Shown: one piece after another, positions 1 through 30,106 of the stretch
How the letters are laid out: each line of letters starts with the position of its first letter
Position numbering within the stretch: position 1 is the stretch's first letter
Source of the DNA: a virus
Reading direction: 5' to 3' (one strand)
Length of the DNA: 64,000 bases
Virus record (IMG/VR): IMGVR_UViG_3300032163_000004
Location: 38,211-102,210 of that record
The notes under the pieces: model-generated
Databases searched by the model: none
What the model was told of the DNA's origin: nothing
What the model saw: the letters and a program-made list of their open reading frames with translations, nothing else
Position numbers and translations under genes: made by a program

Positions 1-3
1 AAT

Positions 4-23
4 TGGTTGTTCGACTTTCGACC
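4..23 (+). ncRNA. 3' arm of a truncated structured-RNA repeat unit (unit 0; 5' arm lies before the window)
   Basis: TGGTTGTTCGACTTTCGACC matches the 3' arm consensus GGTTAYYCGACTT of units 1-3. Confidence 0.6.
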
Positions 24-48
24 ATATTTATTAAAAATGGAGAAGGAA

Positions 49-213
49 ATGAGAAACCCTAAAATAGGAGATCGTTTCTATTCTGAAGTATATGATCTTA
101 ACGGAACTATTAAAGCAGTAAAAAATAGTTGGATTAGAATCCAATATGACGATTGGTCTCATGGTGATTTTTCTACTAACGAATTCTATAAACTTCATAT
201 ATCACTTGATTAG
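49..213 (+). CDS. small hypothetical protein lying between RNA repeat units
   Basis: ORF 7..213; likely start ATG 49 (or 37) after GGAGAAGGA. Confidence 0.55.
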   Translation: MRNPKIGDRFYSEVYDLNGTIKAVKNSWIRIQYDDWSHGDFSTNEFYKLHISLD

Positions 214-217
214 ATAA

Positions 218-286
218 GCCAGTCACTGAATAATCATACATGCTTCTATCCTAAAGGAAACAATAATGGTTATTCGACTTACTGGC
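218..286 (+). ncRNA. structured RNA repeat unit 1 (Y-RNA-like scaffold, small hairpin cargo)
   Basis: GCCAGT-CACT-GAATAATCA-TACATGC ... TGGTTATTC-GACTT-ACTGGC; arms are complementary. Confidence 0.7.
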
Positions 287-295
287 ATAAAATAA

Positions 296-370
296 TAGTC
301 AGTCACTGAGTAATCTTACATGCCTTTTAGGTAGGCTCCAAAACCGAAAGGTTACTCGACTTACTGACTA
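296..370 (+). ncRNA. structured RNA repeat unit 2 (cargo: GCCT/AGGC microhelix + TCCA)
   Basis: TAGTCAGT-CACT-GAGTAATC-TTACATGC ... GGTTACTC-GACTT-ACTGACTA; compensatory changes versus unit 1. Confidence 0.7.
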
Positions 371-377
371 AAAAAAT

Positions 378-507
378 TGGGTTAGTCACTGGATAATCAT
401 ACATGCTTTTTAGCTCAATTGGTTGAGCGTTAGTACTTAGAACTAAGGGTTGATGGTTCAACTCCATCAAAAGCAGCCAAAAATTGGTTATCCGACTTAC
501 TAACTCA
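378..507 (+). ncRNA. structured RNA repeat unit 3 (cargo: complete tRNA-like molecule)
   Basis: TGGGTTAGT-CACT-GGATAATCA-TACATGC ... TGGTTATCC-GACTT-ACTAACTCA. Confidence 0.72.
404..479 (+). tRNA. tRNA-like gene, nominal anticodon TTA (ochre-suppressor-like, non-canonical A32/C33), nested in unit 3
   Basis: Acceptor TGCTTTT/AAAAGCA, D arm GCTC/GAGC, anticodon stem TTAGT/ACTAA with loop ACTTAGA, T arm GATGG-TTCAACT-CCATC, G73 + CCA. Confidence 0.75.
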
Positions 508-604
508 TTTTTATTTTAGGATTCTGCATCCGTATAAACTCACGACTCCATTTGTGACCTTCTGCCTAATCAACGCTCAACGAGCATAAGCACCTCCATG
601 AGCT

Positions 605-653
605 AATAAAGGAACTAGATAACTCATAATTATTTAGTTCCTTTATTTTTTTG
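605..653 (+). terminator. intrinsic terminator closing the RNA array (possibly bidirectional)
   Basis: AATAAAGGAACTAGATAA / TTATTTAGTTCCTTTATT hairpin followed by T-run. Confidence 0.75.
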
Positions 654-669
654 TTGAACTAGCCCTTAT

Positions 670-27975: not shown

Positions 27976-28052
27976 TGGGGTGGCCGGGCGAACTCGAATC
28001 GCCTAAGATGCGGGCCACAACCGCATGCCTCGACCACTTCGGCATCGGCCAC
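27976..28052 (-). tRNA. tRNA-His(GTG)
   Basis: Cloverleaf, loop TTGTGGC, C73 + CCA; no encoded G-1. Confidence 0.88.
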
Positions 28053-28055
28053 ACT

Positions 28056-28131
28056 TGGCTGCCAGAGAGGGATTCGAACCCCCAATCTTTCGGATTAACA
28101 ATCCGCCATTTTACCGTTAAACTATCTGGCA
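28056..28131 (-). tRNA. tRNA-Asn(GTT)
   Basis: Loop TTGTTAA, TTCGAAT, GCCA. Confidence 0.92.
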
Positions 28132-28137
28132 ATAAAT

Positions 28138-28212
28138 TGGTCGGGGAGAGAGGATTCGAACCTCCGGCCTCGTGGTCCCAGGCCACGTCGTCTACCGCTG
28201 GCTTACTCCCCG
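28138..28212 (-). tRNA. tRNA-Pro(TGG), C33
   Basis: Stem CGTGG/CCACG, loop CCTGGGA, ACCA. Confidence 0.9.
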
Positions 28213-28222
28213 TTATCTTATC

Positions 28223-28299
28223 TGGAGCCTACGGACGGATTCGAACCGCCATCTTCCTGTTTACGAAACAGGGACTTTACCAATTAAGCCTACGTAGGC
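28223..28299 (-). tRNA. tRNA-Thr(CGT)
   Basis: Loop TTCGTAA, TCCA. Confidence 0.92.
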
Positions 28300-28306
28300 A
28301 TAAATT

Positions 28307-28382
28307 TGGAGCCCTCGGTAGGAATCGAACCCACGACTTGCTGATTACAGGTCAGCTGCTCTTCCGTCTGAGCTACGAGGGC
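28307..28382 (-). tRNA. tRNA-Thr(TGT), C33
   Basis: Stem GCTGA/TCAGC, loop CCTGTAA. Confidence 0.92.
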
Positions 28383-28388
28383 ATATAT

Positions 28389-28465
28389 TGGTGCTCCCAG
28401 CGAGGCACGATCTCGCAATTTTTGGCTTGAAAGGCCAGTGTCCTAACCAATTAGACGATGGGAGC
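28389..28465 (-). tRNA. tRNA-Glu(TTC)
   Basis: Loop CTTTCAA; atypical T loop ATCGTGC. Confidence 0.88.
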
Positions 28466-28471
28466 AAATTT

Positions 28472-28557
28472 TGGTAGGGGAAGTAGGACTCGAACCTACA
28501 CGCTTTTTGAGCATCAGGGTCTAAGCCTGACAAGGCTACCAGTTACATCATTCCCCC
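28472..28557 (-). tRNA. tRNA-Leu(TAG)
   Basis: Loop CTTAGAC, long variable arm, ACCA. Confidence 0.92.
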
Positions 28558-28562
28558 AAACT

Positions 28563-28636
28563 TGGAGCGGGTAGAGAGAATCGAACTCTCATCGTAGGTG
28601 TGGAAGACCTCAACTCTACCACTAAGCTATACCCGC
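28563..28636 (-). tRNA. tRNA-Gly(TCC)
   Basis: GCGGGTA acceptor, loop CTTCCAC, TCCA. Confidence 0.92.
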
Positions 28637-29236
28637 ACTATTTACTACCTCTTGAATATCTTCTTTTACCTGTTCTTTTGATGGAAACTTCTGAAATATA
28701 GTATATCTTAAGAACCTCCATCCTTGTTCTTCTATTTCTTGTTGTCTTTTATTATGATAATCAATATTATGTTGACAATCAAAATGATAGTAACCATCAA
28801 ATTCTATAGCTATTTTGTGATCTACAATAGCAATATCTACACAATAATTTAAGATTTTATATGTGTCTCTAGAAGTTGGAAATAATTCTTCAACTATTTT
28901 TCTAAGTTTAAGTTCTTCTTCTGATGGACTTTTAATAAATTTCTGAGCGTGTGCAGCTCCTCCATTTATCATTCTTAACCTCTGCTTATTTTTAAAAGAG
29001 TCAGTATGATGTTTTCCATAGAAAGGACTATTTTCACCAGTAAATTTTCCTCTTAAAGTTTCTCTGATTTTCTCTCTTATCTCAATTCTATACATCGCAT
29101 TTACACATCTACCTTTTAAAGATTCGCTATTTTTCTTAGCTACTCCTGGACAACAAACATAGTACTTAATACAACACCACTTCCCATTCTTAAATTGGTG
29201 CTTTGCTTCTTGACCACAACCATATTCACATATCAT
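28622..29236 (-). CDS. homing-endonuclease-like protein (CxYGCG Zn module + NUMOD3-like + Vsr/DUF559-like nuclease)
   Basis: MICEYGCGQEA..QFKNGKWCC; FYGKHHT; VDIA...IAIEFDGYYH...GWRFLR. Confidence 0.8.
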   Translation of the reverse strand: MICEYGCGQEAKHQFKNGKWCCIKYYVCCPGVAKKNSESLKGRCVNAMYRIEIREKIRETLRGKFTGENSPFYGKHHTDSFKNKQRLRMINGGAAHAQKFIKSPSEEELKLRKIVEELFPTSRDTYKILNYCVDIAIVDHKIAIEFDGYYHFDCQHNIDYHNKRQQEIEEQGWRFLRYTIFQKFPSKEQVKEDIQEVVNSAGIA

Positions 29237-29258
29237 ATTAAATCCTTATTATTAAAAT

Positions 29259-29335
29259 TGGTGGGCTAGATCAGATTCGAACTGATACTTTGCGGATTTT
29301 AAGTCCGCTGACTCTACCTGTTGGCCTACTAGCCC
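29259..29335 (-). tRNA. tRNA-Leu(TAA), short variable loop
   Basis: Loop CTTAAAA, ACCA. Confidence 0.9.
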
Positions 29336-29411
29336 TGGTAGGAAGGATAGGAATCGAACCTATGACATTTGGCTTGTAGGGCCAACGCTCTCCCAATTGA
29401 GCTACCCTCCC
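29336..29411 (-). tRNA. tRNA-Val(TAC), C33
   Basis: Stem TTGGC/GCCAA, loop CCTACAA; abuts tRNA-Leu with no spacer. Confidence 0.92.
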
Positions 29412-29579
29412 CTAATCAAAGAATCTATCCTCTGGTTTTCTCAAAAAGTTTTCTACATCTTGTTTAAAATAATCTACATCTCCATCTTTATAAATACCTA
29501 CTGTTTGTCCTTCCATAAATCTATAAAATTCTTGCAGTCTATTAATTCCAATAATCTTAATTACTTTTTGGATTCTCAC
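29412..29579 (-). CDS. small hypothetical protein between tRNAs
   Basis: GTG start after AAGGAG; 3' part of track ORF 29412..29717. Confidence 0.55.
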   Translation of the reverse strand: MRIQKVIKIIGINRLQEFYRFMEGQTVGIYKDGDVDYFKQDVENFLRKPEDRFFD

Positions 29580-29598
29580 TATCTTCTCCTTCAATATT

Positions 29599-29674
29599 TG
29601 GTAGCGGGAGAGAGATTCGAACTCTCGAATGACCGACTTATGAGGACGGCGCCTTGCCTCTTGGCTATCCCGCG
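29599..29674 (-). tRNA. tRNA-Met(CAT), initiator-like C1:U72 mismatch
   Basis: Loop CTCATAA; CGCGGGA/TCCCGCT; lacks the three G-C pairs of canonical fMet. Confidence 0.85.
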
Positions 29675-29857
29675 TTCTTATATGTCTTGTGTGGAGGCAA
29701 TTTATAACCAAACTCACCTCCTACCTGTTCTCTTGGTAAGAGTCTACGATTACAAGTTGGACACCTTACTATTTTCCTTTTATCTAAATTAGGACACCAA
29801 CTTTGATCAGGACACCATCTATAAATTCTTTTCTTTTTCATATCTTCACCCTATATT

Positions 29858-29933
29858 TGGAGTCCCTGGCGAGACTCAAACTCGCGTCGAAAGGATTAGA
29901 AGTCCTTTGCCTGATTCTCTAGGCTACAGGGAC
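29858..29933 (-). tRNA. tRNA-Arg(TCT)
   Basis: Loop CTTCTAA, TCCA. Confidence 0.9.
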
Positions 29934-29942
29934 AATTTTATC

Positions 29943-30017
29943 TGGTAGCAGGCAAGGGATTTGAACCCCTAAAGAGCGATTATAAGTCGCCTATTTTACC
30001 AATTAAATTAGCCCGCC
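29943..30017 (-). tRNA. tRNA-Ile(TAT)
   Basis: Stem GGCGA/TCGCT, loop CTTATAA, ACCA. Confidence 0.88.
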
Positions 30018-30020
30018 AAA

Positions 30021-30106
30021 TGGTGGGGAAGGGAGGAATCGAACCTCCACAGTCGAAGACACGGAGTTTACAGCCCCATAAGCTTACCACACTGCTCAAC
30101 TTCCCC
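30021..30106 (-). tRNA. tRNA-Tyr(GTA)
   Basis: Loop CTGTAAA, long variable arm, ACCA. Confidence 0.92.

What the first reader, a model, noticed from the sequence alone, without database searches (positions are those of the whole stretch)
404..479. Complete tRNA with UUA (ochre-reading) anticodon nested inside a repeat unit
Seen: a full 76-nt cloverleaf with encoded CCA lies between the arms of unit 3, and its 5' end is the TGC of the conserved TACATGC. The anticodon loop is ACTTAGA (anticodon TTA, with A32 and C33 instead of Y32/U33). Established: in YrlA the Ro stem takes the place of the anticodon arm, whereas here the tRNA is tethered through its acceptor ends and keeps an anticodon. Inference: either a caged stop-codon suppressor released by processing, or a non-decoding decoy. 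The degenerate loop and the many TAA-terminated genes argue against efficient suppression.
Basis: partly seen in the sequence, partly recalled or inferred. Interest (0 to 1): 0.82.

Follow-up and report, generated by a model that had tools for sequence, protein, structure and literature searches.

The report
tRNA-shaped cargo of phage Y RNA
The "ochre suppressor tRNA" is a real tRNA fold, but it is most likely the non-decoding, tRNA-shaped body of a small RNA that partners a phage Ro60-like protein, so its UUA triplet should not be read as evidence of stop-codon suppression.

Summary
Window 404-479 is a full 76-nt cloverleaf (ARAGORN; Rfam tRNA 57.8 bits) with a 7-bp acceptor stem, G73, an encoded CCA and the loop ACUUAGA. 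It sits between two covarying stems.

Context changes the reading. The unit is the last of five "handle" RNAs that follow a 494-aa gene. The AlphaFold model of that protein matches Ro60 over its full length. A terminator ends the island.

In 68 related phage loci the same handle lies next to the same gene and on the same strand. The handle is an outer stem, a YACU/GACUU internal loop, an inner stem and UACAUG. It carries hairpins, YrlA-type permuted tRNA mimics (Rfam RF02553, below its gathering score) or whole tRNAs.

I found 64 whole-tRNA cargos in 54 loci. They keep the loop scaffold (U33, R37, A38) and a covarying anticodon stem, but hold 23 different triplets. Non-ACG A34 occurs in 12/58 against 2/182 stand-alone tRNAs, and some loops have 6 or 8 nt. 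Phages with 79-88% identical Ro60 carry UGA, UUA or GAA in the orthologous unit.

The genome shows no TAA recoding, and TAA is its commonest stop codon.

Verdict: a non-decoding Y-RNA cargo, a new variant of a known kind. This scan has noted such arrays before on other DNA.

The parts
1..24 (+). 3' arm (inner stem', CGACUU, outer stem') of the array's second unit (unit B). Its body lies upstream of the window (L001:8090-8235) and is a permuted tRNA mimic that keeps an anticodon arm.
37..213 (+). Small ORF (58 aa from ATG 37, or 54 aa from ATG 49, which has an SD) lying between unit B and unit 1. No family match.
215..289 (+). Unit 1: handle with a short hairpin cargo.
   Evidence: R1 63.3 bits; covariation
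295..371 (+). Unit 2: handle whose cargo is a 4-bp microhelix followed by UCCA (322-340).
   Evidence: R1 58.4 bits; sequence
378..403 (+). 5' half of the unit 3 handle: outer stem 378-386, internal-loop strand CACU 387-390, inner stem 391-399, and U400 plus ACA 401-403 of the conserved UACAUG(C).
404..479 (+). tRNA-shaped cargo of unit 3. The triplet UUA is at 437-439, the loop ACUUAGA at 435-441, G73 at 476 and CCA at 477-479.
480..507 (+). 3' half of the unit 3 handle: A-rich linker 480-484, inner stem' 485-493, internal-loop strand GACUU 494-498, outer stem' 499-507.
605..655 (+). Intrinsic terminator (18-bp stem plus T run) that closes the Ro60-plus-RNA-array island.

Best explanation
Window 404-479 is the cargo of the fifth and last unit of a phage Y-RNA-like array. 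It is not a decoding tRNA.

Shown: the array is encoded on the same strand directly after a divergent Ro60 (ring plus vWA) gene, and a terminator ends it.

Shown: each unit has a covarying two-helix handle around an invariant internal loop (5'-YACU / GACUU-3') and a UACAUG junction.

Inferred: the handle is the Ro60-binding site, by analogy with the bulged stem of Y RNAs. The tRNA fold is the displayed effector module, in the sense used for YrlA and Yrn1. It presents a complete L-shape, acceptor end and anticodon-loop scaffold to some host or phage tRNA-binding factor.

Shown by comparison: the triplet UUA is one state of a position that drifts freely in this RNA family.

Inferred from M. smegmatis YrlA: with a 7-bp acceptor stem and GCCA, the unit is probably nicked by RNase P at 403/404. 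The handle duplex and bound Ro60 would keep the pieces together.

The biological role is most likely in phage-host conflict over RNA or tRNA. A published hint is that the Ro60-like gp130 of phage Bas63 counters the Ppl defence system.
For: Protein:
- The upstream 494-aa ORF has weak vWA hits only.
- Its AF2 model (pLDDT 83.7) aligns over its full length to Xenopus and human Ro60, D. radiodurans Rsr and Thermus phage Ro60 (E 1e-8 to 3e-10, TM 0.56-0.68 normalised by query length).
- Residues fitting a MIDAS motif (D311, S313, S315, T373, D397) are invariant.

Handle:
- 12 short units are 86.7% paired against 30-49% in slid controls, and 14/15 pairs covary.
- 103 of 103 R1 hits are on the Ro60 strand, and all but the window's own lie within 3 kb upstream of the Ro60 gene.
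- The rest of the 64-kb window has only one weak minus-strand hit (12 bits, E 0.35).

Whole-tRNA cargo class:
- 20 units are 94.2% paired, and the anticodon stem is 98% paired with 5/5 pairs covarying.
- There are 64 full-length R2 hits in 54 of 68 loci.
- Loops: U33 51/58, R37 56/58, A38 52/58, but 23 different triplets.
- Non-ACG A34 occurs in 12/58 against 2/182 stand-alone tRNAs (Fisher 9e-7).
- Six loops have 6 or 8 nt.
- Orthologous units in phages whose Ro60 is 79-88% identical carry UGA, UUA or GAA.
- The nearest relatives of the cargo are other embedded cargos (76%, 75%, 71%), not the phage's own tRNAs (64% or less).

Sister units in related arrays match Rfam YrlA over the whole model (37-57 bits, E 2e-10 to 1e-4).

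No recoding: standard-code ORFs cover 89% of the genome. TAA ends 76 of 154 long ORFs. Nine of the ten same-frame ORF pairs split by a TAA show an SD plus start codon within 10 codons for the downstream ORF.

Literature.
Against: - No experiment shows that Ro60 binds the handle.
- The handle lacks the GNCGAA/CGAA motif of described bacterial and phage Y RNAs.
- Unit 3 does not match Rfam YrlA.
- The cargo is a near-perfect tRNA with a 7-bp acceptor stem, G73 and CCA. NCCA sits at the same place in 15 of 64 cargos, which suggests a used acceptor end.
- By my hand count from the list, 3 of the 14 seven-nt loops in that CCA-bearing subset read stop codons (UUA, UCA, UCA). My hand binomial gives about 0.025, uncorrected for relatedness.
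- Only about 40% of the phage genome is in hand.
Confidence: 0.78

Rival explanations
1. It is a true ochre (UAA/UAG) suppressor tRNA. The handle cages it until RNase P and 3' trimming release it. It is then charged and reads stop codons.
For: - Complete cloverleaf, 7-bp acceptor stem, G73 and encoded CCA, with a tRNA score like the phage's other tRNAs.
- A second embedded UUA cargo with a canonical loop (AUUUAAA) exists in L068, and three embedded UCA cargos exist.
- A stand-alone tRNA(UUA) sits in the tRNA cluster of L015.
Against: - C33 replaces the near-universal U33.
- TAA is the most used stop codon, and no interrupted genes appear in 102 kb.
- Stop-reading triplets are not enriched overall (5/58, P = 0.14).
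- Orthologous units of close relatives carry sense triplets or unusable A34 triplets.
- Its nearest relatives carry UCA, an 8-nt loop, AUC and CAU.
- Both tRNA flanks are locked in a 9 + 9 bp duplex.
Confidence: 0.05
2. The handle is a processing or storage cage. RNase P plus 3' cleavage frees a chargeable but non-decoding tRNA-like RNA. That RNA acts away from Ro60, for example as a sponge or decoy for tRNA-targeting defence nucleases or toxins. A split handle duplex is left behind.
For: - NCCA lies exactly after a 7-bp acceptor stem in 15/64 cargos, followed by A-rich single-stranded linkers.
- M. smegmatis YrlA, which has a 7-bp acceptor stem, is cut by RNase P and gains CCA in vivo.
- The anticodon-loop scaffold is conserved while the triplet varies.
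- The Ro60 genes sit inside phage tRNA clusters.
Against: - By a loose motif count, about 26 of 64 cargos carry a GNRA-like hairpin after the acceptor 3' strand instead of CCA. Several of these also have a short acceptor stem, so they cannot be released as tRNAs.
- A34 triplets and 6- or 8-nt loops do not mimic any host tRNA that a specific anticodon nuclease would target.
- An encoded CCA is generally an anti-determinant for RNase Z (established knowledge, not tested here).
Confidence: 0.14
3. It is a decaying tRNA gene, or a passenger copied along with a repeat. It has no function of its own.
For: Non-canonical A32 and C33, and a variable triplet across homologs.
Against: - All helices are intact, and the D and T arms are nearly invariant across 64 cargos.
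- The anticodon stem is maintained by compensatory changes.
- This cargo class is present in 54 of 68 loci.
Confidence: 0.03

Closest known systems
YrlA-type bacterial and phage Y RNAs (Rfam RF02553; Chen et al. 2014, PMC4201824; Wang et al. 2018, bioRxiv 10.1101/312249)
   Same: They are encoded beside a Ro60 ortholog. The 5' and 3' ends pair into a protein-binding stem, and the body mimics tRNA D and T arms. Sister units in related arrays match RF02553 over the whole model.
   Different: YrlA is circularly permuted (T arm, closed acceptor hairpin, D arm). It has no anticodon loop and no free CCA. Unit 3 has normal tRNA order, an open 7-bp acceptor stem with GCCA and a 7-nt anticodon loop. 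It does not match RF02553. The handle motif is YACU/CGACUU, not GNCGAA.
Deinococcus radiodurans Yrn1 (as modelled by Chen et al. 2014)
   Same: Yrn1 is modelled with the Ro-binding stem at the acceptor position and an anticodon-like arm between D-like and T arms. That is the same topology as unit 3.
   Different: Yrn1 has a 6-nt loop, no variable loop and only partial D-loop features. Unit 3 is a complete canonical tRNA. Sequence homology was not tested.
Mycobacterium smegmatis YrlA processing (Chen et al. 2014)
   Same: A 7-bp acceptor stem makes it an RNase P substrate. The cleaved halves gain CCA and stay bound to Rsr. This is the precedent for a nicked but tethered unit 3.
   Different: There the cut opens a closed acceptor loop. 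Here it would separate the 5' handle strand from the tRNA. Not tested.
Thermus phage phiLo Ro60 with Yrl1 and Yrl2 (PMC12135203; PDB 9KOP, 9L5Y)
   Same: A phage Ro60 with phage-encoded partner RNAs next to the gene. The protein is a structural match to ours. It forms complexes with host PNPase in vitro.
   Different: Yrl1 and Yrl2 are stem-bulge-stem RNAs with a CGAA motif. The passages read do not describe a tRNA-like body.
Bas63 gp130, a Ro60-like protein that counters the Ppl defence system (PhageMaP preprint, PMC11482910)
   Same: A Ro60-fold phage protein next to genes annotated as tRNAs. The authors suggest that some of those 'tRNAs' are Y RNAs.
   Different: No RNA analysis was published. 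Homology of gp130 to this protein family was not tested here.
Suppressor tRNAs of stop-codon-recoded phages (own knowledge of the literature, not re-read here)
   Same: A phage-encoded tRNA with a stop-reading triplet.
   Different: Those phages show in-frame recoded stops (TAG or TGA), and their tRNAs stand alone. Here there is no recoding, TAA is the main stop codon, and the RNA is embedded in a handle.

Membership tests
Functional ochre suppressor tRNA | Cloverleaf with conserved tertiary nucleotides, a 7-bp acceptor stem, discriminator base and CCA | tested here: met
   Rfam tRNA 57.8 bits over the full model; U8, G18 G19, T54 T55 C56 and A58 present; G73 followed by CCA
Functional ochre suppressor tRNA | Canonical anticodon loop (Y32, U33, R37) | tested here: not met
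   The loop is A32 C33 UUA G37 A38. Only R37 is canonical.
Functional ochre suppressor tRNA | Anticodon conserved in orthologs | tested here: not met
   23 different triplets in 58 loops. Orthologous units of close relatives carry UGA, UUA or GAA. Relatives with more than 60% Ro60 identity could not be fetched.
Functional ochre suppressor tRNA | The genome contains TAA codons that need reading (recoding or programmed read-through) | tested here: not met
   on the 102 kb available (about 40% of the genome)
Functional ochre suppressor tRNA | Released with free ends and aminoacylated | not testable with these tools
   Needs end mapping and acid gels.
Y RNA (Ro60-associated ncRNA) | Encoded adjacent to a Ro60 ortholog on the same strand | tested here: met
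   Ro60 fold. Array 316 nt downstream on the same strand. Linkage seen in at least 62 of 68 loci, by my count.
Y RNA (Ro60-associated ncRNA) | 5' and 3' ends form a long stem with a conserved bulge or internal loop | tested here: met
   two covarying helices around an invariant YACU/GACUU loop
Y RNA (Ro60-associated ncRNA) | Known Ro60-binding sequence motif (GNCGAA / CGAA) | tested here: not met
   The handle has CGACUU on the 3' strand and YACUG on the 5' strand.
Y RNA (Ro60-associated ncRNA) | Physically bound by Ro60 | not testable with these tools
   Needs RIP or EMSA.
YrlA (Rfam RF02553) | Match to the covariance model; permuted T arm, closed acceptor, D arm order; no anticodon loop | tested here: not met
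   Unit 3 has no RF02553 hit at E of 10 or below and has normal tRNA order. Sister units in other arrays hit at 37-57 bits, below the gathering score of 69.
Ro60 / TROVE protein (the neighbouring gene) | HEAT-repeat ring plus vWA domain with a MIDAS motif | tested here: met
   Full-length Foldseek matches to 1yvp, 2nvo, 9kop and 9l5y. D311, S313, S315, T373 and D397 are invariant.
Ro60 / TROVE protein (the neighbouring gene) | Sequence match to Pfam TROVE | tested here: not met
   Only weak vWA hits. None of the 120 listed homologs carries a TROVE Pfam.

The most novel reading that the evidence does not exclude
The CCA-bearing whole-tRNA cargos, this one included, are real acceptor-active RNAs. 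The Ro60 handle holds them until RNase P and 3' trimming expose the CCA. The fast-changing anticodon arm is then a diversified library that either decoys host tRNA-targeting defences or, for the UUA and UCA members, acts as a conditional stop suppressor. That would make a Ro60 particle a regulated tRNA release device.
Probability: 0.1. Interest if true: 0.9.

Novelty: new variant of a known kind. Interest (0 to 1): 0.6.

Why it matters
- Annotation. tRNA finders label these cargos tRNA-Stop, tRNA-SeC, or tRNAs with A34 anticodons. Next to Ro60-like genes, such calls are Y-RNA bodies. They should not be counted as suppressor tRNAs or used to infer stop-codon recoding in phages.

- Biology. What the tRNA-like module of bacterial Y RNAs does is still an open question. 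This phage family offers a natural series on one handle: hairpin, CCA microhelix, permuted mimic, and whole tRNA with or without CCA. That series makes the question testable by showing which part of the tRNA shape is needed and which host factor it engages.

- Scope. The protein family is large (336 homologs at E of 0.001 or below in one search), is missed by Pfam TROVE, and sits inside phage tRNA clusters. Together with the published Bas63 gp130 anti-Ppl phenotype, this points to a widespread phage RNP acting in host-phage conflict.

Tried and rejected
- DNA similarity to INPHARED phages. The near mode found nothing. The distant mode found one 61-nt hit to an uncultured 595-kb phage. tblastn with the Ro60-like protein found only that phage (29% identity) and one weak hit, so no cultured relative is known.
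- TAA, TAG or TGA recoding: no support.
- Kissing-loop partners for the three anticodon-like loops within the island: only chance-level 6-mers.
- RtcB in the genome: none, but the record is only about 40% complete.
The metagenome scan returned one 2.2-kb contig without an array. An IMG/VR pattern scan gave three chance matches with no units.
- Model R1 with filters off does not span units with long inserts. I replaced it with model R2, built on whole-tRNA units. Unit 3 was in the R2 training set, so its 107 bits hold by construction. Many units outside the training set score 58-109 bits.
- Listeria phage P100. A P100-like phage has published highly transcribed regions upstream of an Rsr-like gene. 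P100 itself has no match to this protein profile or to the handle model, so it is a different lineage if related at all.
- My first strict script for flagging embedded tRNAs found only 5, so I dropped it in favour of the covariance model.

Full report
**1. The observation**

ARAGORN finds 15 tRNAs in the window. One is a 76-nt "tRNA-Stop" at 404-479 (+) with anticodon tta. Rfam's tRNA model matches 404-476 end to end at 57.8 bits, in the range of the phage's other tRNAs. From the sequence the fold is:
- acceptor stem UGCUUUU/AAAAGCA (7 bp)
- D arm GCUC/GAGC
- anticodon stem UUAGU/ACUAA with the loop A32 C33 U34 U35 A36 G37 A38
- a 5-nt variable loop
- T arm GAUGG-UUCAACU-CCAUC
- G73 followed by CCA at 477-479.

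Base 404 is the T of the conserved TACATGC. Two complementary arm pairs flank the tRNA: 378-386/499-507 and 391-399/485-493. They repeat in register in two shorter units at 215-289 and 295-371. The 135-nt unit folds as handle plus cloverleaf (-40.8 kcal/mol, z = -4.6).

**2. Surroundings**

The window is bases 38211-102210 of a 102-kb IMG/VR virus record. It has 32.5% G+C and 24 ARAGORN tRNA calls, two of which are the embedded cargos described here. CheckV rates it about 40% complete. Just upstream of the window (locus L001) lie:
- a 494-aa ORF
- an overlapping 107-aa ORF
- two more units of the same design.

Unit A holds a tRNA-like body with a 5-bp acceptor stem, ACCA and the loop CUAUCAA (Rfam tRNA 48 bits). 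Unit B holds, in order, a T arm, a closed acceptor hairpin, a D arm and an anticodon arm. Unit 3 is therefore the fifth and last unit of one island. The only strong + strand terminator in the scanned region (L001 5600-9100) lies 97 nt after it, at window 605-647.

**3. The protein**

Pfam sees only weak vWA signals, and PHROGs gives "RNA-binding protein" over the vWA part. The family is large, with 336 homologs at E of 0.001 or below, and none of the 120 listed carries a TROVE Pfam. An AlphaFold model built on 40 homologs (pLDDT 83.7) matches Ro60 over its whole length. The matches include the Thermus phage phiLo TROVE/Ro60 entries 9kop (3e-10) and 9l5y, Xenopus Ro60 (1e-9, TM 0.67), human Ro60 and D. 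radiodurans Rsr. Residues that fit a MIDAS motif (D311, S313, S315, T373, D397) are invariant. The neighbour is a divergent Ro60.

**4. The handle is a conserved, covarying RNA element tied to this gene**

I fetched 79 IMG/VR loci that encode the protein. The common design, seen by eye and by script, is:
- outer stem (5-10 bp)
- YACU
- G plus inner stem (6-9 bp)
- (U)UACAYG
- cargo
- inner stem' plus C
- GACU(U/C)
- outer stem'.

On 12 short units, 86.7% of cells pair against 30-49% in slid controls. Fourteen of 15 pairs show compensatory changes, and no shuffle reaches the observed values on four of the five measures. A covariance model built from them (R1) finds 103 hits in 68 non-redundant loci. 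All are on the Ro60 strand, and all but the window's own lie within 3 kb upstream of the gene. Elsewhere in the 64-kb window there is only one weak minus-strand hit (12 bits, E 0.35). By my count, at least 62 of 68 loci carry a unit.

**5. Cargo classes**

The cargos fall into four groups:
- short hairpins (about 38 units)
- permuted T arm, hairpin, D arm bodies (about 25)
- whole tRNAs in normal order
- unclassified.

The permuted bodies are YrlA-like by test. Rfam RF02553 matches them over the whole model at 37-57 bits (E 2e-10 to 1e-4), below its gathering score of 69. This links the arrays to described Y RNAs. Unit 3 itself does not match RF02553.

**6. The whole-tRNA class and its "anticodons"**

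Twenty such units align well. A structure of handle plus cloverleaf is 94.2% paired against 32-44% in slid controls. The anticodon stem is 98% paired and all five of its pairs covary. Model R2 finds 64 full-length members (58 bits or more) in 54 of 68 loci, many of them outside the training set.

I parsed the loops:
- 58 loops have 7 nt and six have 6 or 8 nt.
- The scaffold is kept: U33 in 51/58, purine 37 in 56/58, A38 in 52/58.
- The triplet is not kept. There are 23 kinds: UGA 9, CUU 6, AAU 4, CAU 4, UUG 4, UCA 3, UUA 2 and others.
- A34 other than ACG occurs in 12/58, against 2/182 stand-alone tRNAs of the same loci (Fisher 9e-7).
- The nine UGA triplets sit on class I bodies without the long variable arm that I recall seryl-tRNA synthetase needing.
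- Stop-reading triplets are 5/58 (binomial P = 0.14).

Three phages whose Ro60 proteins are 79-88% identical carry the orthologous unit with near-identical handles. Their triplets are UGA, UUA and GAA, and their acceptor formats also differ: a GNRA hairpin, AUCC and GACCA. The nearest relatives of our cargo are other embedded cargos, not the phage's own tRNAs, which are 64% identical or less:
- L018, UCA, 76%
- L008, 8-nt loop, 75%
- unit A, AUC, 71%.

**7. No need for a suppressor**

Under the standard code, ORFs of 80 aa or more cover 89% of the genome. TAA ends 76 of 154 long ORFs. Nine of the ten same-frame ORF pairs split by a TAA show an SD plus start codon within 10 codons for the downstream ORF, as ordinary gene boundaries do. 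Loci that hold the other UUA and UCA cargos show no in-frame stops in their Ro60 genes.

**8. What remains open**

Fifteen of 64 cargos, ours included, have a full acceptor stem followed by NCCA and an A-rich linker. By a loose motif count, about 26 have a GNRA-like hairpin there instead. Conservation of CCA suggests that the acceptor end is used.

The best precedent is M. smegmatis YrlA. Its 7-bp acceptor stem makes it an RNase P substrate, and the cleaved halves gain CCA and stay bound to Rsr. I therefore expect a nick at 403/404, with the handle holding the pieces together. This is inference.

By my hand count from the list, 3 of the 14 seven-nt loops in the CCA-bearing subset read stop codons. 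My hand binomial gives about 0.025, uncorrected for relatedness. I keep a small probability for a release or suppressor reading.

**9. Comparison with what is known**

- YrlA has a closed acceptor and no anticodon loop, so unit 3 is not a YrlA.
- The nearest described topology is D. radiodurans Yrn1. It is modelled with the Ro stem at the acceptor position and a 5-bp, 6-nt "anticodon arm".
- Phage Ro60 with partner RNAs is known from phiLo.
- A preprint notes that the Ro60-like gp130 of Bas63 counters the Ppl defence. It suggests that some neighbouring "tRNAs" may be Y RNAs.
- Highly transcribed regions upstream of an Rsr-like gene are reported in a P100-like Listeria phage. P100 itself does not match my protein or handle models.
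- I found no paper that describes this handle or whole tRNAs as Y-RNA cargo.

Notes from this scan show that similar arrays were seen before on other DNA. Those notes are not independent evidence.

**10. Verdict**

The fold is real. The suppressor reading is not supported. The RNA is best read as a non-decoding, tRNA-shaped cargo of a phage Ro60 partner RNA, a new variant of a known kind.

Noticed in passing
window 572-581 and 599-609: Two segments downstream of unit 3 are complementary to the two halves of the cargo's D-arm region. Segment 572-581 pairs with 422-431 (10/10 nt) and 599-609 pairs with 407-417 (10/11 nt). The second segment overlaps the 5' arm of the terminator. This could be an inverted D-arm remnant or an alternative pairing that competes with tRNA folding or with termination.
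   Followed up: no
L001:8090-8235 (its 3' arm is window 1-24): Unit B is a permuted tRNA mimic that, unlike YrlA, keeps an anticodon arm (loop CUUGAAA). The handle joins where a variable arm would be. The same layout occurs at L016:2337-2481 and L058:2724-2846.
   Followed up: partly
window 322-340: The cargo of unit 2 can form a 4-bp microhelix (GCCU/AGGC) followed by UCCA, like an acceptor-end minihelix. An alternative CCU/AGG hairpin overlaps it.
   Followed up: partly
L001:7609-7932 and window 37-213: Two small ORFs lie inside the island and match no family. One is 107 aa and overlaps the end of the Ro60 gene. The other is 58 aa and lies between units B and 1.
   Followed up: no
L002-L080: The Ro60-like gene usually sits inside or beside a phage tRNA cluster, with up to about 20 stand-alone tRNAs within 3 kb. 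The handle RNAs lie between the cluster and the gene.
   Followed up: partly
L015:6449-6534: A stand-alone 86-nt tRNA with anticodon UUA lies in a normal tRNA cluster downstream of that phage's Ro60 gene. It is not embedded in a handle and could be a genuine suppressor or a miscalled long-arm tRNA.
   Followed up: no
L032:1680-1810 versus L061:1844-1972: The two cargos have identical anticodon stems (ATTCC/GGAAT), but their loops are CTTCAAA and CTTCAA. A one-base deletion gives a 6-nt loop, which shows how little the loop is constrained.
   Followed up: no
window 27976-30106 and G000:32428-33287: There are two stand-alone tRNA clusters (14 and 8 genes). They include tRNA-Ile with a UAU anticodon (window 29943-30017). 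The ORF listing reports a 204-aa minus-strand ORF at 28622-29236, in the gap of the first cluster. No tRNA-Gln or tRNA-Trp is present in the 102 kb available.
   Followed up: no
L001:5115-5684: A DUF4268 protein (Pfam E 4.5e-14) is encoded about 470 nt upstream of the Ro60-like gene on the same strand.
   Followed up: no
LR756511.1, about 285.7-291.1 kb: An uncultured 595-kb phage encodes a 29%-identical Ro60-like protein. About 3.8 kb upstream of it, a 61-nt stretch resembles unit 1 (77% identity). The system therefore reaches huge phages.
   Followed up: no
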